Shown: piece by piece, positions 1,008-55,645 of the stretch
Position numbering within the stretch: the stretch's first letter is position 1
Layout of the letters: every line of letters begins with the position of its first letter
Origin: an uncultured virus (IMG/VR IMGVR_UViG_3300028364_000031)
Taxonomy: Duplodnaviria; Heunggongvirae; Uroviricota; Caudoviricetes
DNA: 64,000 nucleotides
Strand: one strand, 5' to 3'
IMG/VR virus record: IMGVR_UViG_3300028364_000031
Position numbers and translations under genes: made by a program
Notes under the pieces: generated by a model
Seen by the model: only the letters and a program-made list of their open reading frames with translations
Told to the model about the DNA's origin: nothing
Database searches by the model: none

Positions 1008-1036
1008 AAAAAGGGAACTTCGGTTCCCTTTTTTTT
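1008..1036 (+). terminator. Rho-independent terminator (duplicate of 269-296)
   Basis: Same hairpin and T tract. Confidence 0.92.
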
Positions 1037-3625: not shown

Positions 3626-3863
3626 TGGAAGATCGACAAGTGAGCATGAGTGTAGAAGGTGAAGTGCTAGACGAATTTTAATCCCTAAAGTGTAAACCAA
3701 AAATGCCCTGAACATTCAGGGCATTTTTTATAACATTATCATACCTTTAACATACTACACTATCACTTGTCAAGTAATTTGTATACAAAATAGTGCTTGA
3801 CAGCATGTAATATTTCTGTATAATAGTACCTATAGAAACTAATCAACCACGGAGTAACAGATT

Positions 3864-4394: not shown

Positions 4395-4422
4395 ATAATA
4401 AACCGAAATGGAGTAACAAAGT

Positions 4423-4578
4423 ATGAGTGATGAAGAAAAGTTACGTGAATTGATCTATGCAATTGGTGAAGCCTTAACACAATATGAGGGTACTATGGAG
4501 GCAGTTGATCTTTATCAGGCTTATGGCTGTAACCCAAGAATCGAGTTCAGAGTAGGTGAAGCAGTAGCACATGAATAA
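4423..4578 (+). CDS. Small hypothetical protein (51 aa, MSDEEKLRELIYAIGE...), not in ORF track
   Basis: GGAGTAACAAAGT-ATG leader like other cassette genes; open frame to TAA 4576-4578. Confidence 0.7.
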   Translation: MSDEEKLRELIYAIGEALTQYEGTMEAVDLYQAYGCNPRIEFRVGEAVAHE

Positions 4579-4781
4579 TTTTCCGTGGTTGGAAAAGTAA
4601 AACCTTAAAGGTTTATAGCCCTGATTATTCAGGGCTTTTTTAATAACCTTTTCATTCCTTTAACACACTACACTATCCCCTGTCAACTAATTCATACACA
4701 AAAATAATGCTTGACAGCATGTAATATTTCTGTATAATTAGAACTGTAGAAACACAAACTTAAACCACGGAGCAGTAAATT

Positions 4782-5441
4782 ATGAGAACGAATACATTAC
4801 AAATCATTCAAGACTATTCGCCAGAATCACCACGGGAATGGTGTAATATTGGCACAATCATGTATACAAGCAATCGTTATACTCTGGGCGATGAGTATGC
4901 AAGTGATCTCAACCACTGGTTACAAGAAAAATTGGTAGAGTCGGGCTATGAAGATCGAGCTATGAAACAGGCCGAAGAAGCTGGCACCGAATATCAATCG
5001 CCTGATGAATTGACCATGCAAGAGTTACAAAAAGAATTTGATGATTATTACTTTCACAGGGCAGTATACGCTTACATTCATAGCGGTACAGCCTTGAGTT
5101 TATCACCATTCAGTTGCCCTTGGGATTCTGGTCAATCAGGCATTATCTATGTAAAAAAGGATTATGCTGAAAGTGAGGGAATTACTCAAGAGCAAGTTTT
5201 TGAAAACTTTAAAGCTGAGATCGACACTTTCAATCAATACTTAAATGGTGACGTTTACGGATTCAAAGTAGTAGATACAGATGGTGAGGAAGTTGATTCA
5301 TGCGGGGGCTTTTATGGTAGCGACTATAAAACGAATGGAATGGCTTGTCATATTGATATGGATACTATCAAAAAAGTTGTTATGATGGAAGATCGACAAG
5401 TGAGCATGAGTGTAGAAGGTGAAGTGCTAGACGAATTTTAA
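4782..5441 (+). CDS. Hypothetical acidic phage protein (SPREW, CPWDSGQ.G, DSCGGFYG motifs)
   Basis: 219 aa ORF with repeat promoter/RBS. Confidence 0.85.
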   Translation: MRTNTLQIIQDYSPESPREWCNIGTIMYTSNRYTLGDEYASDLNHWLQEKLVESGYEDRAMKQAEEAGTEYQSPDELTMQELQKEFDDYYFHRAVYAYIHSGTALSLSPFSCPWDSGQSGIIYVKKDYAESEGITQEQVFENFKAEIDTFNQYLNGDVYGFKVVDTDGEEVDSCGGFYGSDYKTNGMACHIDMDTIKKVVMMEDRQVSMSVEGEVLDEF

Positions 5442-5505
5442 TCCCTAAAGTGTAAACCAAAAATGCCCTGAACATTCAGGGCATTTTTTATAACATTATC
5501 ATACT

Positions 5506-5596
5506 GATCAGGTTAAACCGAACTGGTCGAACAGTAGCAAGTACAAAAAGATTACACAAATTGATTCACACATTTTTTATCGTCCTACCTATTGAC
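5506..5596 (+). pseudogene. 3' fragment of the cell-wall hydrolase gene (copy of ~12535-12624)
   Basis: GATCAGGTT..CCGAACTGGTCGAA...CGTCCTACCTATTGA nearly identical to the end of 12073..12624. Confidence 0.9.
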
Positions 5597-5662
5597 AACC
5601 TATAATAAATCTGTATAATAGTACCTATAGAAACTTAAACACAACCAACGGAGTAACAGATT

Positions 5663-5926
5663 ATGAAGTATTTCCACGTAAAATTGAGAATGTATATCGA
5701 CAGCTACGAAAAGACTAGCACTCACTTTGTTGCGGCTGAAGATGAAAAACAGGCTTTCATCAAGGCCGCTGAGAATGAATCACACACCACACTAGAGTGG
5801 AATGATGATGGAGACGCGGAAGATAATGGGATGATCTATTCCCTTACCAGTGTAACTGAAATCACCCCTGAAGAAGTACGAGCACTTAACAGAATGAAAG
5901 TCATTTACTGGACAGTAACAGCTTAA
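5663..5926 (+). CDS. Hypothetical protein, paralog of 12692..12973
   Basis: MKYFHVKL...THFVAAEDEK...WTVTA shared. Confidence 0.88.
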   Translation: MKYFHVKLRMYIDSYEKTSTHFVAAEDEKQAFIKAAENESHTTLEWNDDGDAEDNGMIYSLTSVTEITPEEVRALNRMKVIYWTVTA

Positions 5927-6152
5927 ACAACAATCGCGATTAAACGTCACTAGACAAGGAAGGTGTATCATAGTGTAGCGTAACCCCCATAATATAATTT
6001 TGAGAATAATACTTGACTTAAAAATGCCCTGAACATTCAGGGCATTTTTTATAACATTATCATACCTTTAACATACTACACTATCACTTGTCAAGTAATT
6101 TGTATACAAAATAGTGCTTGACAGCATGTAATATTTCTGTATAATATGTACT

Positions 6153-6365
6153 ATGATATTAAAAATTAAAAGACGCATCCGCAACTGTTTAGTACGTTTG
6201 GATGTTAAAACCGAAAAGTGGGTACTTCCAGAACGATTCTGGAACGCCCTCGATGAAGAAAAATTTGATGAATGTGAAACCTTTATCGAACAAGCATATC
6301 GGAATTATCCTGATGATCCACACGTAGTCTATGCTCAAAGTCTATTAACACGCTTATCCAGTTGA
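6153..6365 (+). CDS. Hypothetical protein (possibly leaderless mRNA)
   Basis: ATG lies ~7 nt after TATAAT, no SD. Confidence 0.6.
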   Translation: MILKIKRRIRNCLVRLDVKTEKWVLPERFWNALDEEKFDECETFIEQAYRNYPDDPHVVYAQSLLTRLSS

Positions 6366-6419
6366 TAGAAAAATTCTTGACGATCAATAAATACCCATAA
6401 TCCAATAGAGTACACCATC

Positions 6420-6707
6420 ATGCTACTAGCAAAACTATTTGAATCAAACAACGACTTTAATAAGTCAGTACGTGCAGAAAATGAAAAACGTGCAAAAGAT
6501 AGAAAGATGAAACGCAAGCATGAATTGCGATCACGTAAACATAAAAGCAATTTACAATCAAAAGAAAATCTGGCACAGTTCGATAACCTTCAGCAGATGC
6601 GTAAAAAGGAATCTGATGAAAAGGTTGAACGGAATAAGGACAATTTGAAAACTGATAAAGTAGTCAATAGTGCTGATGCTCTTCAAAAAAGATTAGCCGA
6701 TAAGTGA
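6420..6707 (+). CDS. Basic late protein with CTS-like leader (MLLAKLFE)
   Basis: AATAAATA at 6386-6393; K/R-rich. Confidence 0.7.
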   Translation: MLLAKLFESNNDFNKSVRAENEKRAKDRKMKRKHELRSRKHKSNLQSKENLAQFDNLQQMRKKESDEKVERNKDNLKTDKVVNSADALQKRLADK

Positions 6708-6793
6708 AATAGTGCTTGACAGGTTGTAATTTTTCTGTATAATAGTACCTATAGAAACACAAACTTAAACAACAACCAACGGAGTAACAAATC

Positions 6794-7096
6794 ATGCTAA
6801 ATGCAATCAATTTTAATGGCACAGACTTTTCTCTGGACTCAGATGAAATAGAAGCCAATCTATTAGAAGCCCTGATCGACTGTGGTCAATCAGGTGACGT
6901 TTTACCACAAGTTCAATACGTCATTGCTAATTGGAGCATCACGGGCGATACAGATGATTGTAGAAAGTATCTGGCAGGATATGGCGCATGGGTTGATGAT
7001 GAACTGCTAGACCATACCACAAATCTTGAACGATTAGTGTGGCTAACAGGTTCAGCACTATTAGAAGATGAATCAGCATATTTCTCAACTTATTAA
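6794..7096 (+). CDS. Hypothetical acidic protein
   Basis: Repeat promoter and GGAG leader upstream. Confidence 0.85.
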   Translation: MLNAINFNGTDFSLDSDEIEANLLEALIDCGQSGDVLPQVQYVIANWSITGDTDDCRKYLAGYGAWVDDELLDHTTNLERLVWLTGSALLEDESAYFSTY

Positions 7097-7154
7097 ACTT
7101 GATACTTTGTAAATACTATGATGCCATATAACTTAATAACTAAGGAGTTCCAAA

Positions 7155-7535
7155 ATGTTTAAACTACTAGTAGCAATTACACTCTTAATCGTTTCAAGTG
7201 CATCCTTTGCCGAGAAATCATTGATGAATCAGCTTCAAAGTAAACCAGTCTGTGAAAGCCCATCAGGTTTTACTCTCGATACAGCGGGGGGTGTATGGAT
7301 GCCACAAGATTACTCACACCTACAACTTGAACAACCAAGCTCAACAATCGAATATCCAGATATGACAATCAACACCGTTACATTTGGATATGACAATAGA
7401 TTGTATGTCAATGGTAATCTAGTTGATACCTTCACCTGTGTGTTATATTTCAATGTCTCTATAATCGACTCACAAGAACTAGGTGTTGAAATCTATATGT
7501 ATGGCCATACCTTTTTTGTACGATTGGATATCTAA
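7155..7535 (+). CDS. Exported protein with Sec signal peptide
   Basis: MFKLLVAITLLIVSSASFA (S-x-A cleavage site); TAAGGAG RBS. Confidence 0.8.
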   Translation: MFKLLVAITLLIVSSASFAEKSLMNQLQSKPVCESPSGFTLDTAGGVWMPQDYSHLQLEQPSSTIEYPDMTINTVTFGYDNRLYVNGNLVDTFTCVLYFNVSIIDSQELGVEIYMYGHTFFVRLDI

Positions 7536-7735
7536 CATATAATACAACGCGCTTGGTAAACCAAAAAAGCCCTGAATGTTCAGGGCTTTTTTTATAACAT
7601 TATCATCCCTTTAACATATTATACTATTACTTGTCAAGTAATTTGTATATGAAAATAGTGCTTGACAGTAGATAATAAATGTGTATAATAAGAACTGTAG
7701 AAACACAAACTTAAACAACCAACAGGTGAAACATT

Positions 7736-8425
7736 ATGAATCAGAATACACTTACAGTTAAATTACTAAAACAGTATCATGCCTGTGCCATTGGTCTGGT
7801 AGAGCGCAACAACCTTGAGGGTTTTCCATTAGATCGCTTGGACGAAGTTCAAGGGAATTATAATTGTTATATTGAACAGCTTGAAGGGATTAAGGATTCG
7901 CTGCCAACATGCAAATTTGATGCCCAAGGGAATATGATCGAGCGGACAGATTTATATGGCTGCGTTATTATCTATGAATATGATACTCAAGGGCGTATGA
8001 TTAAGGAAACAAATGCAGAGGGAGATATTACTGCCTATGAATATGATACTCAAGGGCGTATGATTAAGGAAACAAATGCAGAGGGAGATATTACTGCCTA
8101 TGAACATGATGCCCAAGGGAATAAGATCAAAATAACATTTTCAAGTGGCGCTTTTAATACATTTGAATATGATGCCCAAGGGCATCTGATCAAAAAAACA
8201 TTTTCAAATGGCAATGTTCACAAATATGGATATGATGCCCAAGGGAATCAGATCAAACACACATCCCCAAATGGTGATGTTGATGCCTATGAATTTGATG
8301 GCTATGGGAATATGATCAAACAAACAAATTCAAAGGGTGCTGTTATTACATGGAAATATGAACATTATGAAGATGGACAATTGAAACGTCTGAATGACAT
8401 GATCATTCCGTGGTTTGAAAAGTAA
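7736..8425 (+). CDS. YD/RHS-like repeat protein
   Basis: Seven 21-aa YEYD..G..IK.T...G repeats; exact 63 bp duplication 7973-8035/8036-8098. Confidence 0.85.
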   Translation: MNQNTLTVKLLKQYHACAIGLVERNNLEGFPLDRLDEVQGNYNCYIEQLEGIKDSLPTCKFDAQGNMIERTDLYGCVIIYEYDTQGRMIKETNAEGDITAYEYDTQGRMIKETNAEGDITAYEHDAQGNKIKITFSSGAFNTFEYDAQGHLIKKTFSNGNVHKYGYDAQGNQIKHTSPNGDVDAYEFDGYGNMIKQTNSKGAVITWKYEHYEDGQLKRLNDMIIPWFEK

Positions 8426-8613
8426 AACGTAAAACCAAAAATGTCCTGATTATTCAGGGCATTTTTTATACACTTTTCATCCCTTTAGCATACTACACTA
8501 TCACTTGTCAACTAATTCATACACAAAAATACTGCTTGACAACCTATAACATTTCTGTATAATAGTACCTATAGAAACACAAACTTAAACAACAACCAAC
8601 GGAGTAACAGATT

Positions 8614-9069
8614 ATGAACATACAATTGGGATACGATGTACTAGATTCCAGAGATGTCATTGAAACAATTGATCAACTGGAATCAGAGCTGAAATTTTTA
8701 GTAGAGTACCACAAAGAACAACTGGAGTTGAAGATGGAGGGGGCTGAACGAACTGCCAGCGATATTAAATCCCTCAAGAGCCAAATTAAACCTTTGAGGG
8801 CATTTGCTGATGCCTTTATTGATATGATTGGTAGTGCATGGTATGACGGTGTTAGCCTAGTCAATGATGACTATTTTATCGAATACACCAAGGAATATTC
8901 GGATAATATCGGTAAAACTTCTGATGATGACTCGTGGCCATTCACTCATATTGATTGGAATTCAGCGGCGGATGCATTGCAGTATTATTTTAGTAGCGTT
9001 GACGTGGATGAACATAAGTATTGGACTGCCAAATTATTAAAGATGGATTTCCTGTGGTTGGAAAAGTAA
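8614..9069 (+). CDS. Acidic protein, possibly ArdA-like antirestriction
   Basis: C-terminal EY..EY.D...WPFTHIDWNSAADAL resembles the ArdA-like YIDYE..ARDL motif; weak. Confidence 0.5.
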   Translation: MNIQLGYDVLDSRDVIETIDQLESELKFLVEYHKEQLELKMEGAERTASDIKSLKSQIKPLRAFADAFIDMIGSAWYDGVSLVNDDYFIEYTKEYSDNIGKTSDDDSWPFTHIDWNSAADALQYYFSSVDVDEHKYWTAKLLKMDFLWLEK

Positions 9070-9250
9070 AACCTTAAAGGTTTATAGCCCTGATCATTCA
9101 GGGCTTTTTTTATAACACTATCATCCCTTTAACACACTACACTATCCCTTGTCAACTAATTTGTATATAAAAATAGTGCTTGACAGCATGTAATATTTCT
9201 GTATAATTAGAACTGTAGAAACACAAACTTAAACCACGGAGCAGTAAATT

Positions 9251-9793
9251 ATGAATCATACTTACAAAATTGAATTGCTACAACTTTTAGATCAACTAAA
9301 AAACGATGCAAAGGTAATGTATGGGTTTAACAAATACATTGACCTGACCTTTAAAAATCTTGGTATGCACGGTGGATGGGCTAAAGTTGTTGATCGTATG
9401 TATGCTATCGAAATCAATAATCAATTACTATGTGAAAAATACCTTGACGAGGCTAAAGATACTCTAATCCATGAGTTTGCTCATATTGTGTGTTTTTGGG
9501 ATAGATCATTAGGACGCAACCACAATAAAGGTTGGAAAAAAGTCTGTAGAGCATTAGGTGGCACTGGCAACCGTTGCCACTCAGTACCCCTTAAACCTAA
9601 GCGTAAAACCCGTGTGGCAATCTATAACGTGCCTACACCAAACGGTAATGTAACAATGCCAATTGGTTTGATCGTACACGGTAAAATTAATAAAGGTCAA
9701 AATAGATGGCTAATTGCATGTCGATCAAAAATCTTACCGGAACATTTTACCGGAAAAATAATGCTCAAATCAGAATACAAAAATACTGCTTGA
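9251..9793 (+). CDS. SprT-like zinc metalloprotease
   Basis: DTLIHEFAH, HNKGWK.VC..LGG...RCH motifs. Confidence 0.88.
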   Translation: MNHTYKIELLQLLDQLKNDAKVMYGFNKYIDLTFKNLGMHGGWAKVVDRMYAIEINNQLLCEKYLDEAKDTLIHEFAHIVCFWDRSLGRNHNKGWKKVCRALGGTGNRCHSVPLKPKRKTRVAIYNVPTPNGNVTMPIGLIVHGKINKGQNRWLIACRSKILPEHFTGKIMLKSEYKNTA

Positions 9794-9852
9794 CAGTAAA
9801 TAATATTTCTGTATAATAGTACCTATAGAAACTTAAACCACGGAGCAAGATT

Positions 9853-10182
9853 ATGGAAGCTTTTTCTATTCCAGATGAACTACTAGATGAAATTGGACTT
9901 GACGTACCCACACTGGCCAACTGGCGTGGATTGGACGAATACGATAAACAGTGTGATGAATTTATTGATACTCTAAAAAAGTATATTCTTACTCTGGAAG
10001 TTCGCCCGAAACATACTGGCAAAATACTATCACTTCCATTCGCGGATGGCTACGCCCAATATATGTTTGTGGATTGTAAAGAGTATGGTAAGTATTTACT
10101 CCATTTACCATTAGGTGATGCGTATCACGATCCATTAGTGTATAATTTATCAGTCCGAGAAGTGTTGAAGCGTATCAAATAA
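9853..10182 (+). CDS. Hypothetical protein
   Basis: ADGYAQY/LHLPLGDAY; repeat promoter/RBS upstream. Confidence 0.85.
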   Translation: MEAFSIPDELLDEIGLDVPTLANWRGLDEYDKQCDEFIDTLKKYILTLEVRPKHTGKILSLPFADGYAQYMFVDCKEYGKYLLHLPLGDAYHDPLVYNLSVREVLKRIK

Positions 10183-10359
10183 CAAACAAGTTTATAGCCC
10201 TGATCATTCAGGGCTTTTTTTATAACACTATCATCCCTTTAACACACTACACTATCACTTGTCAACTAATTCATATACAAAAATACTGCTTGACGGTAGG
10301 GAATACATGTGTATAATAAGAACTATAGAAAACTTAAACAACCAATGGAGTAACATATT

Positions 10360-10564
10360 ATGATGTATTTGAACGACGAATACCCTAAACATCTTGAAAA
10401 AATACGAGACCGGTTTGATGATAAATTTGAAACTATGGGAAGGTGATTTACATTTTGATATGTTCATAGGCTGTACTGCTACTGCAACATCTAAGCAAGA
10501 GCATGATGACTCGGATAACGGGTATCTATAACCTCAAACATCATTAGCACCGGCAACACGTTAA
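10360..10564 (+). pseudogene. Probable broken cassette gene; 3' part homologous to the C-terminus of 13397..13702
   Basis: Full promoter/RBS but only 28 codons from ATG 10360; the other frame reads ...HDDSDNGYL*PQTSLAP vs ...NDDSNDDVSKHLSPQTSLAP. Confidence 0.55.
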
Positions 10565-10792
10565 GCAACACGTTAAGCAACACGTTAAGTAACACGTTAA
10601 GCATTGCATTAAGTAACACGTTAAGCAACACGTTAAGTAACACGTTAAGCAACACGTTAAGTAACACGTTAAGCATTGCATTAAGTAACACGTTAAGCAA
10701 CACGTTAAGTAACACGTTAAGCAACACGTTAAGCAACACGTTAAGTAACACGTTAAGCAACACGTTAAGCAACACGTTAAGCAACACGTTAA
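10553..10792. repeat. Tandem repeat, 20 x 12 bp (G[C/T]AACACGTTAA; units 5 and 11 are GCATTGCATTAA)
   Basis: Counted directly. Confidence 0.98.
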
Positions 10793-10923
10793 GCTTACTC
10801 TAAGTGTCTCTCAGAGCGTACTAGTATACACAAGGCATTACGCATGCGTTAGGGGTTAATTGCCCTTGACATTATATAATTTTCATGTATAATAGAATCA
10901 ACAATCAAAAAGGAAATACAAAA

Positions 10924-11262
10924 ATGTTTAAAGTATTTGCAGTAGACCACGCCAGCTCTATTCATGGAGATAATAATGAGGTTAACTTCATATTATGTGA
11001 AGATGCCCCAGATGCTGTAGACTTGGCTATTCATGACCCTGAACTGTATCAATTACATCTTTATGAAGAAGATGTCATAATTACCGAATTACCATACCAT
11101 ATTGCAGTGCATTTAGATCAATACAATCTATCTCGTGCTGCAAACCGGGATGCCACCTTATTCAATATTGTAAATCTTGCCACCAAAGAAAAACGTAAAG
11201 CGTACTTAGATCAGTATGATGAAGAATATGATGTGTCAAACCGATATTACCTCAGATATTAA
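10924..11262 (+). CDS. Hypothetical protein
   Basis: TTGACA 10866/TATAAT; AAGGA RBS before ATG 10924. Confidence 0.8.
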   Translation: MFKVFAVDHASSIHGDNNEVNFILCEDAPDAVDLAIHDPELYQLHLYEEDVIITELPYHIAVHLDQYNLSRAANRDATLFNIVNLATKEKRKAYLDQYDEEYDVSNRYYLRY

Positions 11263-11550
11263 TATCTAAAATAGATTGACATTTCAACTCACAACGATAA
11301 CACAAAAAGGGCTTGGTGTCAAGCCCTTTTTTTACATTCATTTCAACTTTTAACCCTTCCATCTTACACTAAAAAACTTAAATGACAAGGGCGACAACTG
11401 ACATAAAACTAAATGATATTATCATCCCTTTACCACAAGTCATTGCGGCGTGTCAAGTAATTTGTATATAAAAATAATGCTTGACACTGTGTAATAAATG
11501 TGTATAATGGAAACCATAGAAACTTAAACAACCAAAAAGGAAACACGATT

Positions 11551-11802
11551 ATGATGTATTTTGCACTAGGTACTGATGGCGTTATGTACGACTTAGGTGA
11601 TTGTGAGGATTTTGCAGCAGCAAAGGACGCTGCGGGGAATTTAAAGGTCGGTGTGATATGGCTGGCTGATAGAGCCGCTGCATTTGCATGGACTGATAGG
11701 ACTCTAAAGTCCATCTTGGGTGATAAAGCCGCTGCATTGGCATGGACTGATAGGATTCTTCGGTCATGTACGAACATCGAGCACGCCATTGGCATGGACT
11801 GA
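11551..11802 (+). CDS. Hypothetical protein with internal imperfect repeats
   Basis: GCATGGACTGATAG-containing ~52 bp unit occurs three times, 11668-11839. Confidence 0.65.
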   Translation: MMYFALGTDGVMYDLGDCEDFAAAKDAAGNLKVGVIWLADRAAAFAWTDRTLKSILGDKAAALAWTDRILRSCTNIEHAIGMD

Positions 11803-12072
11803 TAGTATTCTTCAGTCATGTGCGAACATCGAGCACGCCGAGATAAATATAGTGGATCAGCAGTAGTTACTTATAGAAAGTAAAACCTTAAAGGTTTATA
11901 GCCCTTCACCCGAAGGGCTTTTTTATAACATTATCATCCCTTTACCACAAGTCATTGTGGCGTGTCAAGTAATTTGTATATAAAAATAATGCTTGACACT
12001 GTGTAATAAATGTGTATAATTAGAACAGTATTTCTGTATAATTAAATCATTAAATAACCATAAGGTAATAAC

Positions 12073-12624
12073 ATGAAAACTTTGAAAAACATTGCGTTCT
12101 TTATTCTTTTAACCATCGTGATCAATTATGTAGGGTTCACCATTTTGTTTGAACCGGTGAACGCTTCACAGATCACTTCTAAGCCCTTAACCCTTGAACC
12201 AGTCTCATTGTATGAAGGCGGTGGCAAAACGGTGTCTGAGGCTGGCCTACAATGCCTTACTGAGAATATCTTCCATGAAGCTAGAAGTGAATCAGATCGT
12301 GGAAAATTTGCTGTAGCGTATGTTACCATCAACCGATTATTATCAACACATTACCCCGATAAATTATGTGATGTTGTTTATGAACCTTATCAATTCTCAT
12401 GGACAGTTGAACCACAAAAAGTTAAGCATAACAGTATAGAATCACAAGCATGGAATAATGCTTATAAGGTAGCATTGTCAGCTCTCTCGACAGGTGTACC
12501 AGATTCTTTAGTACATGTCACACATTTTCATACCGATCAGGTTCAACCGAACTGGTCGAAAAGTAGCAAGTACAAAAAGATTGCACAAATTGATTCACAC
12601 ATTTTTTATCGTCCTACCTATTGA
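12073..12624 (+). CDS. Cell wall hydrolase, SleB/Hydrolase_2 family, N-terminal membrane anchor
   Basis: CLTENIFHEARSE..RG..AVAYVTINR, CDVVYEPYQFSW, THFH, P.WS, IDSHIFY. Confidence 0.92.
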   Translation: MKTLKNIAFFILLTIVINYVGFTILFEPVNASQITSKPLTLEPVSLYEGGGKTVSEAGLQCLTENIFHEARSESDRGKFAVAYVTINRLLSTHYPDKLCDVVYEPYQFSWTVEPQKVKHNSIESQAWNNAYKVALSALSTGVPDSLVHVTHFHTDQVQPNWSKSSKYKKIAQIDSHIFYRPTY

Positions 12625-12691
12625 CAACCTATAATAAATCTGTATAATAGTACCTATAGAAACTAAACAACAACCAACGGAGTAACAGATT

Positions 12692-12973
12692 ATGAAGTAT
12701 TTCCACGTAAAATTGAATACAGTGAATATGTATATGGACATCTACGGACAAACTCGCACCCATTTTGTTGCGGCTGAAGATGAAAAAGAGGCTTGGATCA
12801 AGGCCGCTGATGAAGAAGCACTCAACACAGTTGAGTGGAATGATGAATTCGCACTAGATGGATCAATGGAAGTACCAATGATCTATTCCCTTGCCAGTGT
12901 CGCTGAAATCACTCAAGAAGACGTGCGAGCACTTCACCGAATGGGAATCATTGACTGGACAGTAACAGCTTAA
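12692..12973 (+). CDS. Hypothetical protein, paralog of 5663..5926
   Basis: Shared sequence and leader. Confidence 0.88.
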   Translation: MKYFHVKLNTVNMYMDIYGQTRTHFVAAEDEKEAWIKAADEEALNTVEWNDEFALDGSMEVPMIYSLASVAEITQEDVRALHRMGIIDWTVTA

Positions 12974-13155
12974 ACAACCAACGTCACTACTTAAAAATGC
13001 CCTGAACATTCAGGGCATTTTTTATAACACTATCATCCCTTTACCACAAGTCATTGGGGCATGTCAAGTAATTTGTATATAAAAATAATACTTGACAGCC
13101 AGTAACATTTATGTATAATAGTACATATAGAAACTTAAACCACGGAGAAACAAAC

Positions 13156-13392
13156 ATGAACTTATATATGATCACACGACCAAACGGATTAATTGATTAC
13201 GACGAAGCCGAAGAAATGGTTATCGCTGCCAATTCAGAAAATGAATGTAGAACACTGGCAACCACAAAAGCCGGTGATGAAGGCAAGGCCACATGGCTTG
13301 ACCCTAAAATAACATTGTGCGTAAACATTGGCACAGCTAACGACACCATTACAAATCCAATGGTACTGTGCCGTGACTATTTTGAAGCGTGA
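13156..13392 (+). CDS. Hypothetical protein
   Basis: CCACGGAG RBS before ATG 13156. Confidence 0.8.
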   Translation: MNLYMITRPNGLIDYDEAEEMVIAANSENECRTLATTKAGDEGKATWLDPKITLCVNIGTANDTITNPMVLCRDYFEA

Positions 13393-13396
13393 TGAT

Positions 13397-13702
13397 ATGA
13401 ACAACATAACTAAACACGGCCCATCAGTTCAACAGGAACGTAGTACTAAGGGTGAGTTGATTCATGAACCCTATTGGCTGCATGGTAGATCATATAATGT
13501 ACGAGGCCCGGCTGTTTATGCGGGACGTGGTGCAATGAAAGAACTTATAGCAGAGATGGAAGCGTTGGAAGCTTGGGGAGAAGAAGAATTGCTGTTCATT
13601 ATGGGAATAGGTGACCATCCTCCTATTACCTCTAAAACCAATGATGACTCCAATGACGATGTAAGTAAACATCTATCACCCCAAACATCATTGGCACCTT
13701 GA
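13397..13702 (+). CDS. Mosaic hypothetical protein
   Basis: GELIHEPYWLHG..YNVRGPA is a degenerate copy of the 3272..3625 repeat; C-terminus matches 10418-10552. Confidence 0.55.
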   Translation: MNNITKHGPSVQQERSTKGELIHEPYWLHGRSYNVRGPAVYAGRGAMKELIAEMEALEAWGEEELLFIMGIGDHPPITSKTNDDSNDDVSKHLSPQTSLAP

Positions 13703-37026: not shown

Positions 37027-37455
37027 TTACACCGTTTTTAAATTTTCCAATAATTGTTTATATACTAGTGCCGCACCACACTCATACTCTTGCGGAGAGT
37101 ATGTGTAGTATGGCAATAAACTTCTATCAAGTTCGGGAAGAATAATGCCCCAACTGGTCATAAGACCGTCCATTGAGTCAACATCTTCACAAAAATAACC
37201 AACAGGCCATTGGGTGTCAAAAGTTGTCGCTCGTGTTAGAGCAGCTTTCAGGGCTGCACTGTTACCACCCTTTAACACAATCATGGTTCTATCTTCATCG
37301 GTCCATTGTGATAAGACCTCTGTAGCCTGTGAAGAACTATTTTTGTACTTGGTGGTCATGGCCTGAATAACATGTGCAGCCTGAATACCATGTTGAACAT
37401 CCGACAAATATGAATGTCCTACAAAATATCCTCTATACTTGTACTTAATCGTCAT
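37027..37455 (-). CDS. Pth2-like peptidyl-tRNA hydrolase family protein
   Basis: GIQAAH, W....TMIVLKGG, F.ED...G.MT. Confidence 0.62.
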   Translation of the reverse strand: MTIKYKYRGYFVGHSYLSDVQHGIQAAHVIQAMTTKYKNSSSQATEVLSQWTDEDRTMIVLKGGNSAALKAALTRATTFDTQWPVGYFCEDVDSMDGLMTSWGIILPELDRSLLPYYTYSPQEYECGAALVYKQLLENLKTV

Positions 37456-38438: not shown

Positions 38439-40541
38439 TTAGCTTAAGAACTCTGAGTTAATCAAAGAGATATCGTATGGAGTTACGTCACCGTCCCAAG
38501 CAAATACATAGTCTGCATCGCCCCGATTATCGACAATTTCGTCACCTCTGGCTTCGGCATGGAGTCTGAAAACATCCCCAAGGGTAGTCTTCATGTTGGC
38601 CATAGAAGCGCTCATTTCCATGATTTCAGAAGATGATGCCATATTACTTTCTATGTTATTGCCACCCCAGCCCCAGTTGTAGTTACCACTACTTGAATGA
38701 GGTAAATCAATCCAAACTACTTCTCTGGTTTCCAAGTCGATCAACAGTGGTGTACATTTTCTTGTATTCCATTTAATATCGATCTTGTTTTCCACAGTCT
38801 TCGCATCATAAATCTCGTTACTTCCGGCAGAAGTTCTAGCCATCCAACCAGCGTAACAAGCCTCGTGATCTTCAAAGTTTGGACCACTGTATACGAATAC
38901 GTTCATCGAAACATAACGCGCATTCTTTCCCTGAGTAGCTTTGATTTTATCAATGTCGATATCAATGAACTCACTAGCACCATTATAGGCTCTAGTGATA
39001 TCACCGGAGTGACATGCTGCCAGTCCGGCACTTCTCAAATTGGTATAAGAAATATGCCCCATACCTTTAAAATCGTTATCAAGGAACAGCGCACTCAAAT
39101 CAATATCCTGACCCACCCAATAGATGAAAAATCTCACCGTGGACTTATCGTCATCAATCTTAACACGAGTTCCTCGCGCAAGCTGGCGTAAACCGTCACT
39201 CGTTTCCCGCTGCTGAGTGGGTAGTGGGCAGTTGTCCATTTCTGGAGAAATATACACTTTACCCAAATTGTCCATTTCTGAAAATCTCTGGACCAAGACT
39301 TCGTCAATTAGGCCAATGAGTTTTGTAGTGATGGCACTCGGCAACGCCTTTTGTCCGTCAATTTTTCTAGCAGACTTGATATTTCCTTTCGGAAGTACAA
39401 TTCGGAAACTAGAATTCTTTGATCGGTTCTGGAAGTGTCCACGCAACTGGAAGAGAACTCTGGTTGAAACCGCTGGGGCAACGCTCCGGAAAGCACTAAG
39501 AATTCTACCTCGCTTGTTATCAGTATCAACTTCTCTCAACAGCATATCCAGTCGTCTGGCCATTTCACCCGGACGATCCAGCAATAGTTTAGTGGCCTTC
39601 GCATAATGTCCACGTGCCAATAACTGTTCCAAATCTGAATAGAAATGGTTTATCTTTTCACCGTTTCGAAGTCCACGCATGGTATCCCATGCAGTGCGAG
39701 AAAAATCTCCTACGTGTAGGGAGTGTGCTAGTCGCTTCCACATACCACTATAGCGATAAATGTCTTCAGAAACTTGACGATTCCCACTTTCCACAGTCAA
39801 ACGGTCAAGCGTATTAACCAAAACTCGCCTCTGGCCTCTAGGGAGGCTCACAAACTTAGTGTTCGTCGCAAGAGACACATCGCCACCGGAAAGCTGTACA
39901 GCCACTCTCAGGAGGTCTGTGGAAGTCTTCACTAATCCACCAAGAGGGATACCATTCTGAACCATATAGGCTCCGATTAGTGCTACATTTTCTTTATACG
40001 GAATATTGTCTGGAAACTGTAGGTTCCCATAGTTCTGTAAAAACCACGTTACTACGCTTTTGTCATAATCAGAGATCGAATCGTTCGAAGACATAATTTG
40101 GGTAAAGATTCCCGCAAACCGTGTTTCATCAATCAATCTAATTTGGATCAACTTGGTATTTTCAAGTGCAAATGCTCTTGGCAACTTTTCATATTCAGGA
40201 GACCATTCACCAAAAGTCCAGTAGTGTCCGATAGCGTTCAAGAACAATTCTAGATCATCGGCCTCAAGAACCTGTTGTGGAAAATTCGGATACATTGGGT
40301 TATATTCTACGTCAGCACCCTTTAATGCCTTGAGTTCATTGATAAGGTTATTATATGTTGAATCACTATCTAGTGCCGCAAGGGCGTGTGCAAGTCCTTC
40401 ACTCAACACAAAACCTAAGCTAAGGACATTGGCTTGCAGTGTCATAACTTTTGTCATAGCTTTTGTCATATCTGTAGAATCTGTTGAACCGTTAATAACA
40501 ACCGCGTTTTCTTTCTTCAAAGCAATCTGTAACTTATTCAT
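38439..40541 (-). CDS. Large TerD-family protein (long helical N-terminus + C-terminal TerD domain)
   Basis: DIDLSALF, HSGDIT.A..GASEFIDID TerD motifs; MYPNFPQQV, RPGEMARRLD in N part. Confidence 0.8.
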   Translation of the reverse strand: MNKLQIALKKENAVVINGSTDSTDMTKAMTKVMTLQANVLSLGFVLSEGLAHALAALDSDSTYNNLINELKALKGADVEYNPMYPNFPQQVLEADDLELFLNAIGHYWTFGEWSPEYEKLPRAFALENTKLIQIRLIDETRFAGIFTQIMSSNDSISDYDKSVVTWFLQNYGNLQFPDNIPYKENVALIGAYMVQNGIPLGGLVKTSTDLLRVAVQLSGGDVSLATNTKFVSLPRGQRRVLVNTLDRLTVESGNRQVSEDIYRYSGMWKRLAHSLHVGDFSRTAWDTMRGLRNGEKINHFYSDLEQLLARGHYAKATKLLLDRPGEMARRLDMLLREVDTDNKRGRILSAFRSVAPAVSTRVLFQLRGHFQNRSKNSSFRIVLPKGNIKSARKIDGQKALPSAITTKLIGLIDEVLVQRFSEMDNLGKVYISPEMDNCPLPTQQRETSDGLRQLARGTRVKIDDDKSTVRFFIYWVGQDIDLSALFLDNDFKGMGHISYTNLRSAGLAACHSGDITRAYNGASEFIDIDIDKIKATQGKNARYVSMNVFVYSGPNFEDHEACYAGWMARTSAGSNEIYDAKTVENKIDIKWNTRKCTPLLIDLETREVVWIDLPHSSSGNYNWGWGGNNIESNMASSSEIMEMSASMANMKTTLGDVFRLHAEARGDEIVDNRGDADYVFAWDGDVTPYDISLINSEFLS

Positions 40542-42400: not shown

Positions 42401-43117
42401 TTATATACTATCACATGTTTGGCGTGTTGTCAAACAGTTTTGTGCCAAAGAAACTATTCTATCCAATCCTATGGATATTTCTGTTACTATAGCATTAGTA
42501 TAATCATTTCTGATTGAACATGATGCTATTTCTTTCCACCCTTTAGTGGTGTTTAATTCTATATCTAGCGTTGACTCTGAATATGACGGTAGCCTGTCAG
42601 ACGGGACTACCCTACTTTCTTTACCCATAAACATTTCGACATCTTTTCTAATGGCTTTTATCATTTCACCTCTATAATCAGCTTTAGTAGTACTAGAATA
42701 TATGCACTGGAACTCTAGCTGCCAAAATTCTAGAAAGCGAAGTTTGGATGCTGATGCACCGTCATTCAACTCCCTCCTAAATGACTTGCCAGCTTGCCAT
42801 ATACACAGTGGAAGCTTTTTCCTCGAATGTTGGGCATATTGATAACTTCCCATGGTAGTCTCGGCACGTAGTGCTAGAGGTTGTCCATTAGCAGAATGGT
42901 TCGTAGAGAATACGTCATTGTCGCTATATTCTTTAGATACAAAATCGCTTGGGGTTAATATTGGAGATTCTACCCGCTCAATATACCATGCATTGTTTAT
43001 ATCTCTCAACGTTTTTGAAACTGTTGCAGTGATATGTGTTGTAGCCATCTCTCTAAAAAGTATTTCCTTTTCGGACCAGAATCTCAATCCTCCAAGTTTA
43101 TATAATGGTTCACTCAT
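42401..43117 (-). CDS. Stand-alone class II aminoacyl-tRNA synthetase catalytic domain (Gly/Ser/Pro/Thr subclass IIa-like), no anticodon-binding domain
   Basis: Motif 1 VESPILTP, LRAETT, motif 2 QAGKSFRRE...LRFLEFWQLEFQ, EIASCS, motif 3 SIGLDRI close to the C-terminus. Confidence 0.82.
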   Translation of the reverse strand: MSEPLYKLGGLRFWSEKEILFREMATTHITATVSKTLRDINNAWYIERVESPILTPSDFVSKEYSDNDVFSTNHSANGQPLALRAETTMGSYQYAQHSRKKLPLCIWQAGKSFRRELNDGASASKLRFLEFWQLEFQCIYSSTTKADYRGEMIKAIRKDVEMFMGKESRVVPSDRLPSYSESTLDIELNTTKGWKEIASCSIRNDYTNAIVTEISIGLDRIVSLAQNCLTTRQTCDSI

Positions 43118-43147
43118 TGTTTTTCCTATTATTGTTTTCTCTAAAGG

Positions 43148-43216
43148 TGGTGCCTCATGAGAGAATTGAACTCTCGACAGTCTGGGTTTAGAATCCTATG
43201 TCAACCGTTATGAGGC
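43148..43216 (-). ncRNA. 69-nt tRNA-like RNA lacking a D stem, with TT-CTA-AA apical loop
   Basis: Perfect acceptor GCCTCAT/ATGAGGC + ACCA, T arm GAGAG-TTCAATT-CTCTC; weak anticodon stem. Confidence 0.7.
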
Positions 43217-43545
43217 AATGTAGCACCGAAACTTAAAACCCATCTTGATCCCTTTTCGATAGTTGTAACTCTATGATAGTTAGAGTCTGCCCTAAATAAA
43301 CAAAATCTCCACCATTTGAATATGACATTTTGGCATATAAACTTGCCACCCTGTTCGGCCTTTTTTAGTTCAATGTTGAACCGAAAATGCCTACCATGTT
43401 TACTAGGGTCTTTGTGTTTGGGGATGTGCGAACCCTCTTTATAATGAAAGAGGTATGTATCCCATCTAAACTTCTTACTATAGAAGATCGTGAAAATTCG
43501 ATATCCAGTATCAAATTTATCGTTTCCCCATCTCCATAATCTCAA
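43201..43545 (-). CDS. 2OG-Fe(II) oxygenase-like protein
   Basis: IPKHKDP (HxD), YHRVT, R.VLS. Confidence 0.78.
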   Translation of the reverse strand: MRLWRWGNDKFDTGYRIFTIFYSKKFRWDTYLFHYKEGSHIPKHKDPSKHGRHFRFNIELKKAEQGGKFICQNVIFKWWRFCLFRADSNYHRVTTIEKGSRWVLSFGATLPHNG

Positions 43546-43586
43546 TGTTGGTGTGACTTTTTTAGGTTTCTACATAGTGTTATTCC

Positions 43587-43862
43587 TTATTTTTTATTGT
43601 TCGTACTATCGTCATCTTTAATCCATTCTAGGAGTGCAAGTTCAATCCTCTGTATTAAATTTATGTCTACTGACACTGAACATCGTTTCAGCATTCTTGC
43701 ACGGTAAATGGCTTTTTGTAGTGCAATTAATTCAGTTTCTAGAGTACCAGTGAAACATTTCATGTTCTCATCTCGTCTCATCTCGTCTAGTAGAGTTGAC
43801 ACCTTTTTTGCATACTGTTCAAGAGATGCTTCTGTATCTAGGTTTAATGTTATTTGTGTCAT
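43587..43862 (-). CDS. Hypothetical protein
   Basis: Coupled to upstream gene. Confidence 0.65.
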   Translation of the reverse strand: MTQITLNLDTEASLEQYAKKVSTLLDEMRRDENMKCFTGTLETELIALQKAIYRARMLKRCSVSVDINLIQRIELALLEWIKDDDSTNNKK

Positions 43863-44284
43863 ACTTTTATTCCTGATTGAATTATAATCATAGCAATTAT
43901 GGCGTAATGTGTCAAGTGGTGAACAGTCTGATCAAAACCCAAACACATCCAATATGGCTTGTTATTCATATCTTTGTATCTACCCAGCATTGATGGAGAA
44001 GCTTTAATCCTGTCCATGGTGAAATGTATCACAAAATCAATACTAAGGCATATTAGTGACCATATCATGACTGTTTGTATATCGATTTGGAAGTACATAA
44101 GGGTGAAAAAGGTAATAATACCTGATAATATCGCATGATCACCTGCATGTTTAGTCAAGGGCCACACCCAACCATTCGCGTTAAACTTAGCCATTCCATC
44201 TTTTCGAAACAATTGTATCACAAAGTCAGCGAGAAAGTGTTTTGCTTGAAAAACAATTAACAGTGTGAATACTGTAGTAAACAT
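43859..44284 (-). CDS. DUF3307-like membrane protein
   Basis: KHFLADF..Q, HAGDH, HFTMDRIK, GFDQTVHHL. Confidence 0.82.
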   Translation of the reverse strand: MFTTVFTLLIVFQAKHFLADFVIQLFRKDGMAKFNANGWVWPLTKHAGDHAILSGIITFFTLMYFQIDIQTVMIWSLICLSIDFVIHFTMDRIKASPSMLGRYKDMNNKPYWMCLGFDQTVHHLTHYAIIAMIIIQSGIKV

Positions 44285-44322: not shown

Positions 44323-45009
44323 TTATAATACTCCCTTATGACAAAACAGTTCAGAAACACCTTCATACGTAGGTTCAAATTCTGAAACGGTCGTACCATC
44401 CCGAAAGATGAAGGTGCCATTCCTTAATCTAGGCTCCAGTGTTTGCCATGCTGGGATTCCTGCTTCTTCTAACATCTTATACATCGCTTCTGTATTCTTC
44501 CCGATCAAACTCTTGTGACTAAAGTGTGCTCTACAATACATTTGGAGACTGTTTCTTTTCCAATCTTTAACTCTCCACAAGAAAGCGTTTACAGCATCAC
44601 TCTCCGGCACGTTGAAAGCTCTAGCGTCGAAGGCTGCAAGGTTAAGGTCCCCCCCAACGTATGTGCGAAGAATATTATTAAAGTTTGCGGTCATTAACGA
44701 AGCTGAAATGCTTGCGATTTTTTGTTGTTTATTGTCAAACCAAAATTCACTTCGAGGATCGGAACTGTGAAGCATAAATGTTGCTTCATCAGACTGAACA
44801 TATGCGACTCTAAAGTTCTGCATATCTTTTGATATGGTTTCTACCGTATCTACCATAGTGGAGATATAACCACCACTAAATGGTTTTGTGAAACCTTTTA
44901 AAAAGGTGTGGAACGCTCTACCATCTACGCGAATGAAAACGGGAACCCTTGGAGTCAACCTAGGGTTTGCACATTTTTCATAACTTTTCATTCTATCACC
45001 TAAATTCAT
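44323..45009 (-). CDS. tRNA(His) guanylyltransferase Thg1-like 3'-5' polymerase
   Basis: RMKSYE, IRVDGRAFH, YVQSDE, FDAR, FLWR..D..RNS. Confidence 0.92.
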   Translation of the reverse strand: MNLGDRMKSYEKCANPRLTPRVPVFIRVDGRAFHTFLKGFTKPFSGGYISTMVDTVETISKDMQNFRVAYVQSDEATFMLHSSDPRSEFWFDNKQQKIASISASLMTANFNNILRTYVGGDLNLAAFDARAFNVPESDAVNAFLWRVKDWKRNSLQMYCRAHFSHKSLIGKNTEAMYKMLEEAGIPAWQTLEPRLRNGTFIFRDGTTVSEFEPTYEGVSELFCHKGVL

Positions 45010-53122: not shown

Positions 53123-53301
53123 TAAATCCCACCTTTTCCTTCTGTTAAAGTGTCCATAATTTTCGTGTTTATATCTAGTCCATGAATAGTTACTAAAAAT
53201 CTATTTAAATCTTTAATTTTGTGAACAAGAGGAACTATAATTTCCGCAGCGGATGTCTGTGCATACTCGATTGCAGTCGAGCATATACACAAGTCTCCTT
53301 G

Positions 53302-53374
53302 CTTAGATGACTGGATTTGAACCAGCGACTTCCACCCTCTAGGCGGCACTCTGACCTGACTGAGCTACATCTAA
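53302..53374 (-). ncRNA. tRNA-like RNA with 5-nt anticodon loop (TAGAG), no encoded CCA
   Basis: Acceptor TTAGATG/CATCTAA, D arm, CCGCC/GGTGG stem, T arm GCTGG-TTCAAAT-CCAGT. Confidence 0.8.
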
Positions 53375-53495
53375 CTTTGTGAGCACTGCAAAATTGCAAT
53401 ACTTCTGAATACTTCGGATTTCACCAGCACATCTTGCAAGATGTGCTGGTTACTTTCCGTTGCGGATATGCCTAAACATGTTCATAGGCTCCTGA

Positions 53496-53566
53496 GTATG
53501 ATGGTTGGGCTTGAACCAACGACGCCCGCTTGTTAGCGGTGCTCTACCAACTGAGCTACATCAAAC
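53496..53566 (-). ncRNA. tRNA-like RNA with 4-nt anticodon loop (AACA), no encoded CCA
   Basis: Canonical D arm GCTC-AGTTGGTA-GAGC, CCGCT/AGCGG stem, T arm GTTGG-TTCAAGC-CCAAC. Confidence 0.8.
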
Positions 53567-55058: not shown

Positions 55059-55100
55059 ACTCTGATTCCTTTATAATCTAACGTTTTAACAATTAAAAAG

Positions 55101-55173
55101 TGGCGAAACTGCGAGACTCGAACTCGCATTTATCCGTGCCCCGGACATCTTACCATTAGAAGAAGTTTCGCCA
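55101..55173 (-). ncRNA. tRNA-like RNA with 5-nt anticodon loop (GGGCA)
   Basis: TGGCGAAACT/AGTTTCGCCA terminal stem, TCTAATGGTAAGA D region, T arm GCGAG-TTCGAGT-CTCGC. Confidence 0.75.
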
Positions 55174-55348: not shown

Positions 55349-55422
55349 TGGTGGAGGATAACGGAATCGAACCGTTCGGTCGAGAATGCAAAACTCATCC
55401 TGTGCTCCCAACAACATCCCCC
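55349..55422 (-). tRNA. tRNA-Ala(TGC), atypical D arm
   Basis: G3:U70 pair, anticodon TGC, T arm, ACCA. Confidence 0.78.
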
Positions 55423-55561: not shown

Positions 55562-55645
55562 TGGTGGTACAGGTAGGACTCGAACCTACTAAGTCATAGA
55601 CGCCAGATTCAGAGTCTGGTACTCTACCAGTTAAGCTACTTCCCT
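55562..55645 (-). tRNA. tRNA-Gln(CTG), long variable arm, damaged acceptor 5' strand (possible pseudogene)
   Basis: Loop CT-CTG-AA; 5' strand AGGGAAG pairs poorly with CTGTACC and is the end of CDS 55636..56262. Confidence 0.65.

What the first reader, a model, noticed from the sequence alone, without database searches (positions are those of the whole stretch)
42401..43545. Minimal class II aaRS directly downstream of a D-stem-less tRNA-like RNA with a CUA (amber) loop
Seen: on the minus strand, a 2OG-Fe(II) oxygenase is followed by a 69-nt RNA (perfect 7-bp acceptor, ACCA, canonical T arm, no D stem, loop UU-CUA-AA on a weak stem) and, 30 nt later, a 238-aa class II synthetase core with no anticodon-binding domain. 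The RNA's 5' strand is preserved inside the oxygenase's last codons. Known: pylT/pylS is a linked tRNA(CUA)/class II synthetase pair, and aaRS paralogs can supply aminoacyl donors outside translation. Inference: a private phage tRNA/synthetase pair for amber read-through or non-ribosomal aminoacyl transfer, perhaps with an oxygenase-modified substrate. The poor anticodon stem argues against efficient decoding.
Basis: partly seen in the sequence, partly recalled or inferred. Interest (0 to 1): 0.85.

Follow-up and report, generated by a model that had tools for sequence, protein, structure and literature searches.

The report
Phage amber tRNA gating an oxygenase
Large bacterial viruses carry an oddly folded transfer RNA that matches the UAG stop signal, next to a small oxygenase gene that has a UAG stop right after its start, so the enzyme can probably be made only when this RNA works; the synthetase gene that first drew attention looks like a chance neighbour.

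Summary
The 69-nt RNA and the 238-aa GlyRS-like core are real, but the RNA's conserved partner is the upstream 2OG-Fe(II) oxygenase, not the synthetase. The RNA belongs to an unannotated phage family: 7-bp acceptor, CCA, T arm, invariant CUA loop, and a 4-bp helix between the old D-stem 3' strand and the variable region in place of a D stem (18 of 19 pairs covary in 13 sequences). It lies within 0.7 kb of the oxygenase in 14 of 17 members of one clade, including cultured phages nt-1 and XaC1. Two others have canonical amber tRNAs; one is truncated. The true oxygenase gene starts at 43575 with ATG-TAG. An in-frame TAG at codon 2-8 is present in 16 of 17 clade genes with a visible 5' end (the 17th has it before a frameshift). 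These phages otherwise use TAG as stop. None of 23 oxygenase records has the synthetase. Best reading: amber-gated expression of the oxygenase by a dedicated non-canonical suppressor tRNA. Expression, charging, readthrough and the enzyme's substrate are untested. The scan met the synthetase family before on other DNA, but not this cassette.

The parts
43887..43915 (-). sigma-70-like promoter (11/12, extended -10) that could drive the 91-aa ORF, oxygenase, RNA and synthetase
   Evidence: consensus match only (23 sites found, 17.3 expected in shuffles)
43584..43588 (-). Shine-Dalgarno-like AAGGA, 8 nt before the oxygenase ATG, overlapping the stop of the upstream 91-aa ORF
   Evidence: sequence
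43201..43575 (-). 2OG-Fe(II) oxygenase gene, 124 codons with the in-frame TAG; minimal all-beta double-stranded beta-helix; H44-x-D46, H91, R101-xxx-S105 invariant (numbered from the TTG at 43545)
43570..43572 (-). in-frame amber codon (codon 2 of the oxygenase); proposed translational gate
43148..43216 (-). D-stem-less tRNA(CUA): acceptor 7 bp, GG-containing linker, 4-bp replacement helix, internal loop, 2-3 bp, 9-nt anticodon loop, T arm, A73-CCA
43189..43191 (-). CUA anticodon, invariant in 13 of 13 aligned family members
43176..43202 (-). extended anticodon arm closed by the replacement helix GACA (43202-43199) / UGUC (43179-43176)
   Evidence: sequence; helix 2 (4 of 4 pairs change on both sides, 96% paired)
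42401..43117 (-). stand-alone GlyRS-like class II synthetase catalytic core, 238 aa; widespread phage family; neighbour, not a conserved part of the cassette

Best explanation
A two-part phage cassette. The D-stem-less RNA is a functional amber suppressor of a new fold: the 3' strand of the lost D stem pairs with the variable region, which keeps the acceptor-to-anticodon distance, and the linker GG can still reach the T loop (inferred). A host synthetase charges it (LysRS or GlnRS are the usual takers of CUA tRNAs; inferred). It reads the UAG at the start of the oxygenase mRNA, so full-length oxygenase is made only while the suppressor is present, intact and charged. The phages keep the standard code elsewhere, so this is programmed readthrough of a single gene. 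The most likely purpose is a feedback or sensing loop in which the oxygenase, a small basic hydroxylase-type enzyme, acts on the translation apparatus (the RNA, its amino acid or a host factor); that last step is a guess. Shown: fold by covariation, linkage, conserved TAG. Inferred: expression, charging, decoding, substrate. The mini-GlyRS is a separate gene of phage tRNA regions.
For: Covariation: 18 of 19 pairs change on both sides, 96.3% of cells paired against 29-42% for slid controls; RNAalifold predicts the same four helices. Linkage: RNA within 0.7 kb in 14 of 17 rows of the 100/100 WGxD clade and 0 of 7 rows outside it. It lies upstream in some loci and downstream in others, and is the only tRNA-like element within 2 kb upstream of the gene in several (L495, L498, L499, L506). 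Gate: ATG then TAG at codon 2-8, in frame, in 16 of 17 clade genes with a visible 5' end; L490 has ATG-TAG before a one-base shift. In 6 of the 16 no ATG/GTG/TTG lies between the TAG and the conserved W-G motif. The two clade members without the odd RNA each have a canonical CUA tRNA (L494 at -1.9 kb; L504's record). In the window the oxygenase is the only SD-ATG-early-stop-long-ORF case in 64 kb. TAG is an ordinary stop in the window, nt-1 and the samples of eight other records.
Against: No expression, charging or readthrough data. The RNA also occurs without the oxygenase: of 6 D-stem-less RNAs found from the RNA side only 2 have it nearby; it is absent from three fragmentary records and from one complete record, L551, a weaker match. 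In 10 of the 16 genes an ATG or TTG after the TAG could give a shorter protein without readthrough. One gene outside the clade (L487, phage RP12) also has an upstream in-frame ATG...TAG, though followed by its own SD-ATG and with no CUA pattern match in that genome. The 31-39 pair is a mismatch in 12 of 13 RNAs, which may weaken decoding. The pair counts come from an alignment fitted to the structure. The R2 model does not cleanly separate the family from canonical CUA tRNAs (held-out nt-1 52.7 bits, canonical up to 49.6). Oxygenases of both clades are equally basic (pI 9.5-10.7), so charge says nothing specific about RNA binding. My gate scan missed nt-1's own gene (weak SD), so other gated genes may be missed too.
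Confidence: 0.7

Rival explanations
1. Private pair: the mini-GlyRS charges this RNA with glycine for amber readthrough or non-ribosomal transfer; a weaker form says the mini-GlyRS family serves phage amber tRNAs in general.
For: 30-nt spacing and a probable shared transcript in the window. The enzyme lacks an anticodon-binding domain and keeps an intact active site. Canonical CUA tRNAs occur in 5 of 12 complete or near-complete synthetase genomes and within about 3 kb of the gene in three records: Phosso (-329 nt), G011 (1.7 kb) and G082 (3 kb, found through its CUA tRNA).
Against: 0 of 23 oxygenase records, 15 of which hold the odd RNA, have the synthetase (the search finds it when present). 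1 of 50 CUA-tRNA records has it. No D-stem-less CUA RNA at 94 synthetase loci or among the 15 best model hits printed from 34 synthetase records. CcrBL9 and Bambus have the enzyme and no CUA pattern match. Acceptor stems of the RNA family share no sequence and end in A73 (11 of 13), not the U73 of E. coli tRNA-Gly.
Confidence: 0.08
2. tRNA-dependent new amino acid: the oxygenase hydroxylates the amino acid on the charged RNA (or a residue placed by it), and the product goes in at UAG, including the enzyme's own codon 2, as in Sec or Pyl systems.
For: Hydroxylase-type motif (HxD..H..RxxxS) with weak matches to P4H-like PF13640 and AspH-like PF05118 rather than AlkB. An odd tRNA body could serve as the enzyme's identity signal. 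Tight linkage.
Against: The TAG lies 10 to 16 codons before the W-G motif in an unconserved tail, more like a gate than a needed residue. Canonical amber tRNAs stand in for the odd RNA in two genomes. No other convincing UAG-containing target found.
Confidence: 0.12
3. The RNA is not a decoder but a decoy or structural partner (for host tRNA nucleases, a release factor or the oxygenase), and the TAG belongs to a two- to eight-codon leader that tunes re-initiation at a downstream start.
For: No D stem and a 9-nt anticodon loop; downstream ATG/TTG in 10 of 16 genes; RNA present without the oxygenase in 4 of 6 RNA-first finds.
Against: A leader would not need TAG every time, when TAG is the rarest stop (32 of 250 ORFs in nt-1), nor to stay in frame; 6 of 16 genes have no other start; the clade without the gate lacks the RNA.
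Confidence: 0.08
4. Decayed tRNA gene (for example from tRNA-Arg(UCU) or a canonical amber tRNA) that happens to sit here.
For: The window holds several degenerate tRNA-like genes. Canonical CUA tRNAs and an Arg(UCU) tRNA with the same acceptor 5' strand exist.
Against: Same architecture with full covariation in 13 divergent sequences, invariant loop, linkage to a TAG-gated gene.
Confidence: 0.02

Closest known systems
Phage amber-suppressor tRNAs (XacN1, PMC5852040; screen of 162 phage tRNA(CUA), PMC12636597; passages seen)
   Same: CUA anticodon, phage tRNA regions, probably charged by a host synthetase; a 31-39 mismatch is also common among canonical phage CUA tRNAs.
   Different: Those in my samples are cloverleaves. 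In XacN1 no readthrough target was found. Here the D stem is replaced by another helix and the neighbouring gene carries a conserved UAG.
pylT/pylS (tRNA-Pyl and PylRS)
   Same: CUA tRNA with a reduced D region next to a class II synthetase in this window.
   Different: tRNA-Pyl keeps a D stem (recalled). The synthetase is closer to GlyRS than to PylRS and is not conserved beside the RNA; no pylBCD among the neighbouring ORFs scanned.
D-armless mitochondrial tRNA-Ser(GCU) (PMC10424219, PMC7609411; passages seen)
   Same: No D stem, a linker in its place.
   Different: Organellar sense-codon tRNA with altered T arm; here the T arm is canonical, a GG is kept in the linker, the anticodon is amber and the host is a bacterium.
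tmRNA tRNA-like domain and YrlA RNAs
   Same: Acceptor plus T arm, with a stemless or modified D region (tmRNA detail recalled; YrlA from passages of PMC10424219).
   Different: They have no conserved anticodon loop; no Rfam match for 8 family members or the window.
Programmed recoding as a sensor: prfB frameshift at UGA, Sec-containing SelD (recalled, no call)
   Same: A stop codon early in a gene makes its product depend on the state of the decoding system.
Homodimeric (alpha2) GlyRS; amino acid:carrier protein ligases (PMC9437257, passages seen)
   Same: The 238-aa protein has class II motifs and best sequence and fold matches to mycobacterial and Thermus GlyRS; like aa:CP ligases it lacks the tRNA-binding domain.
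   Different: No anticodon-binding domain, about half the length; no recurring carrier-protein neighbour; substrate untested.

Membership tests
Canonical tRNA (Rfam RF00005) | 7-bp acceptor, discriminator, CCA, 5-bp T stem | tested here: met
   (nt-1's copy has a 6-bp acceptor)
Canonical tRNA (Rfam RF00005) | D stem-loop (cloverleaf) | tested here: not met
   no D stem; replacement helix covaries 4 of 4; window 24 bits below cut-off 29, and only 1 of 8 relatives reaches it, at 29.5
Amber suppressor tRNA | U33-C34-U35-A36-purine37 loop | tested here: met
   13 of 13
Amber suppressor tRNA | charged and decodes UAG on the ribosome | not testable with these tools
   indirect only: conserved in-frame TAG in the linked gene
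Pyl system (pylTS) | synthetase is a PylRS | tested here: not met
   GlyRS E 3.5e-9 against PylRS 1.8e-5 with the family profile; top Foldseek rows are GlyRS
Pyl system (pylTS) | conserved linkage of the tRNA(CUA) and the synthetase | tested here: not met
alpha2 GlyRS | class II motifs 2 and 3 and three acidic residues at the amino-acid site | tested here: met
   R114, E116, R220, E86, E135, E213 kept in 96-98 of 100 distant homologs; E86 and E135 align with M. tuberculosis GlyRS; their role in glycine binding, and the match of E213, are recalled
alpha2 GlyRS | C-terminal anticodon-binding domain | tested here: not met
   median tail after motif 3 is 10 residues, longest 47, in 100 proteins chosen at 205-290 aa; next ORF has no Pfam match; longer fused forms were not searched for separately
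alpha2 GlyRS | activates glycine and charges tRNA-Gly | not testable with these tools
   needs assay
2OG-Fe(II) oxygenase | DSBH fold with HxD...H triad and 2OG-binding Arg | tested here: met
   invariant in 33 rows; all-beta model pLDDT 91; cupin/DSBH matches, best Z 10.9, rmsd 2.8, 93 aligned; PF13640 at 23.6 bits, below its cut-off 27
AlkB-type nucleic acid dioxygenase | nucleotide-recognition lid and RxxxxxR motif (recalled) | tested here: inconclusive
   motif is RxxxS and the protein is too short for the lid; no AlkB row among those shown
Amber-recoded phage (TAG as sense genome-wide) | coding density rises when TAG is read through; TAG not used as stop | tested here: not met
   gain with TAG as sense is close to or below the TGA control in the window, nt-1 and 40-60 kb samples of eight records; TAG ends genes in all
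tmRNA / YrlA / tRNA-Sec | match to the Rfam family | tested here: not met

The most novel reading that the evidence does not exclude
A self-referential phage recoding module: a tRNA of new fold decodes UAG in a standard-code infection, its only target is the oxygenase beside it, and the oxygenase in turn modifies that tRNA, its amino acid (a new genetically encoded hydroxylated residue) or the host termination machinery, closing a feedback switch on stop-codon meaning.
Probability: 0.3. Interest if true: 0.95.

Novelty: new variant of a known kind. Interest (0 to 1): 0.85.

Why it matters
It offers a concrete answer to an open question: what amber suppressor tRNAs do in phages that keep the standard code (the XacN1 authors found no target). 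The target here is invisible to annotation because the stop sits at codon 2-8, so the gene is called short; other such genes may be hidden the same way. The RNA would be a natural D-stem-less decoder in bacteria, a shape otherwise known mainly from mitochondria, and a candidate scaffold for genetic-code expansion. It can be tested at once in a cultured phage on a laboratory host (nt-1 on Vibrio natriegens). Separately, more than 1,200 clusters of a stand-alone GlyRS-like core in phages are uncharacterised natural minimal synthetases.

Tried and rejected
Synthetase neighbours: no conserved partner in 59 groups; the commonest were a PTH2-like ORF (6 groups) and an RNA ligase (5). Genome-wide amber recoding: rejected. 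In-frame tandem ORFs split by TAG in nt-1: 5, four with their own start right after the stop and the fifth not followed up. Arg(UCU) reading of the loop: stem worse than the CUA reading, and the family keeps CUA; short-D tRNA-Arg(UCU) genes (L234, L241, L016) are a different class and scored 37, 23 and 17 bits with R1 against 52 for the window. blastn with the window RNA against GenBank phages found only partial tRNA matches; with nt-1's RNA only nt-1, CZ01 and one partial match. Expression: no RNA holder listed. No whole genome is held for the window. PDB sequence search with the oxygenase profile gave nothing meaningful; Foldseek had no match at E<=0.001. No complex prediction was run. Ten literature searches listed no paper on this RNA, the cassette or the mini-synthetase; the library lacks most subscription papers, and I did not see Table S1 of PMC12636597 (213 phage suppressor tRNAs), which could hold members of the family. 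Look-ups in the scan's earlier notes with the oxygenase and the RNA were blank.

Full report
Observation. The window is part of a large phage from lake metagenomes with 11 ARAGORN tRNAs. On the minus strand lie a 91-aa ORF, an oxygenase ORF, a 69-nt RNA (43216-43148) and, 30 nt on, a 238-aa ORF. The RNA has a perfect 7-bp acceptor, A73-CCA, a 5-bp T stem and no D stem. A strict detector found 7 such elements in the window and 0 in 100 Markov controls. Contigs of a separate run cover it with no difference.

The synthetase. It matches tRNA-synt_2b at the cut-off. Its best solved relatives by sequence and fold are homodimeric GlyRSs. It belongs to a large family: 1251 clusters among 1519 candidates, 434 representatives at 50% identity, and 23 GenBank phage records, 20 of them over 80% of the length. 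Catalytic residues are kept in 96-98 of 100 distant homologs of 205-290 aa, and the chain ends a median 10 residues after motif 3. Glycine specificity is an inference from three acidic residues whose role I recall. I examined 94 homologous loci (58 other groups at 85% identity among the 91 with a callable ORF). None had a D-stem-less CUA RNA nearby, although many flanks are short, and there was no conserved neighbour. Against a clean dismissal: canonical amber tRNAs occur in 5 of 12 complete or near-complete synthetase genomes and within 3 kb of the gene in three records, so a loose link of this family to amber tRNAs is not excluded. From the other side only 1 of 50 amber-tRNA records had the synthetase. 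A phage enzyme that consumes Gly-tRNA for DNA modification is known (PMC13219725, passages), which is one possible reason for a phage GlyRS; not tested.

The RNA is a family. Pattern scans for phage CUA tRNAs gave mostly cloverleaves, but 3 of 68 distinct sequences were 69-71 nt and D-stem-less. One (L434, a complete 328-kb phage) has nearly the same anticodon arm as the window and begins in the stop codon of a homolog of the oxygenase (48% identical). That genome has no mini-synthetase. I then collected oxygenase loci: 18 from IMG/VR, 7 of 28 GenBank records and 2 from synthetase genomes. A tree of 24 rows after dropping near-copies splits them into a WGxD clade (17 rows, support 100/100) and 7 others. 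The RNA lies within 0.7 kb in 14 of the 17 (two are a variant form, L499 and L502) and in 0 of the 7, nor elsewhere in those 7 records. It abuts or overlaps the stop codon in four (window, L490, nt-1, L507) and lies upstream in ten, seven of these within 100 nt, so the order has changed while the two stayed together. The three exceptions are L505 (contig starts inside the gene), and L494 and L504, each with a canonical CUA tRNA in its record. None of 23 oxygenase records holds the synthetase; the 2 of 36 synthetase records with an oxygenase have the other type.

Fold. In 13 aligned RNAs 18 of 19 pairs change on both sides and 96.3% of cells pair, against 53% in shuffles and 29-42% with slid partners (the alignment was fitted to this structure, and RNAalifold returned the same helices). 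After the acceptor comes a 7-10 nt linker, mostly with GG, then a 4-bp helix formed with the variable region, a small internal loop, 2-3 pairs, a 31-39 mismatch (12 of 13) and the loop YUCUAA(A/C); the discriminator is A in 11 and G in 2. The GG sits at about the canonical distance from the anticodon, so I read the fold as a tRNA that lost the 5' strand of its D stem and re-paired the 3' strand (inference). Rfam has no family for it. The held-out nt-1 RNA scored 52.7 bits with the model, but canonical CUA tRNAs reached 49.6, so scores alone do not define membership.

The gate. Reading upstream of the called ORF shows AAGGA, 8 nt, ATG (43575), TAG, then eight codons that run in frame into the domain and match the N-termini of homologs. 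In 16 of 17 WGxD genes with a visible 5' end (near-copies included) an ATG is followed by TAG at codon 2-8 in frame; L490 has ATG-TAG before a one-base shift. Six of the 16 have no other start codon before the conserved W-G motif; ten have an ATG or TTG there. Of the 7 outside the clade, 6 lack it; L487 has an upstream ATG...TAG but its own SD-ATG after it. A database protein that matches L499's N-terminus has Q at this place (P0302), probably a gene caller's reading of the stop. TAG is the rarest stop in these phages and is otherwise used normally: coverage gains with TAG as sense are close to or below the TGA control in the window, all of nt-1 and 40-60 kb samples of eight records. A scan for SD-ATG-early stop-long ORF found the oxygenase alone in the window, recovered it in the two samples that contained it, and gave three other hits (one TAG, one TAA, one TGA) in about 710 kb; it missed nt-1's own gene because of a weaker SD.

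Limits. From the RNA side only 2 of 6 D-stem-less RNAs had the oxygenase nearby; three of the others lie on records 32-46% complete and one, a weaker match, on a complete genome without it. So the oxygenase needs an amber tRNA, but the RNA may not need the oxygenase. Nothing here shows expression or decoding. The TAG lies 10-16 codons before the W-G motif in a variable tail, which fits a gate better than a needed residue.

Mechanism. Shown: fold, linkage, conserved TAG, standard code elsewhere. Inferred: processing from a shared transcript (promoter-like site at 43915; in the window the RNA overlaps the last codons of the oxygenase, so cutting it out would destroy that mRNA's end); charging by a host enzyme (U35 with A73 favours LysRS in E. 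coli suppressors, PMC9976931 passages; 28 of 29 tested phage CUA tRNAs inserted Gln in PMC12636597, passages, where Gln and Lys are nearly isobaric); UAG decoding. The oxygenase is a minimal DSBH protein with HxD..H..RxxxS and weak ties to prolyl- and aspartyl-hydroxylase families. Its substrate is unknown; a target in translation would make the gate a feedback loop, like the prfB frameshift (recalled).

Literature. Ten searches listed nothing on this RNA, cassette or mini-synthetase. I read passages only, of PMC7609411, PMC9437257, PMC10424219, PMC9976931, PMC5852040, PMC7824862, PMC12636597 and PMC13219725, and no supplements; Table S1 of PMC12636597 may include family members. PMC5852040 reports phage amber tRNAs with no target found.

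Verdict. Observation confirmed; pairing reassigned from synthetase to oxygenase. New variant of a known kind (phage amber suppression and programmed readthrough) with a new RNA fold and a hidden single-gene target. Interest 0.85.

Noticed in passing
window 53299-53374, 53494-53566, 55100-55170, 55349-55422, 55562-55642 (-): Several tRNA-like genes with intact acceptor or T arms but shortened or odd anticodon or D arms.
   Followed up: no
window 37027-37455, 44323-45009, 38439-40541 (-): PTH2-like hydrolase, Thg1 tRNA-His guanylyltransferase and a 700-aa phrog_33734 protein surround the cassette; the 700-aa protein recurs near the synthetase in 3 groups, and a similar 694-aa gene lies just upstream of the D-stem-less RNA in L581.
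   Followed up: partly
L551:4521-5072 (-): A release-factor-like gene (RF-1 and PCRF domains) lies 1.5 kb upstream of a D-stem-less CUA RNA in a complete 362-kb phage that has no oxygenase match.
   Followed up: partly
L234:1475-1544, L241:1473-1545, L016:6365-6436: Phage tRNA-Arg(UCU) genes with a very short D arm, a second non-canonical class.
   Followed up: no
L246-L479: Many canonical phage CUA tRNAs have an A.C or C.A mismatch at 31-39 and a 6-nt variable loop.
   Followed up: no
L007:5591-5666; L020:7439-7514; L464:275-348: Amber tRNAs within 3 kb of the mini-synthetase in phage Phosso (annotated tRNA-Undet), G011 and G082; Phosso and L031/L035 also have a CysRS gene close by.
   Followed up: partly
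L082-L087: Mini-synthetase homologs (41-42% identity) on high-GC contigs of 0.3-1.06 Mb, which may be cellular or very large phage DNA.
   Followed up: no
L490:2957-3324: Closest oxygenase homolog (79%) has ATG-TAG and a one-base shift before the domain; assembly error or real break not resolved.
   Followed up: partly
L494:998-1072: The canonical amber tRNA near this gated oxygenase has C instead of U at position 33.
   Followed up: no
window 1-13700: Repeated intergenic promoter/terminator-like units between early-type genes (seen).
   Followed up: no
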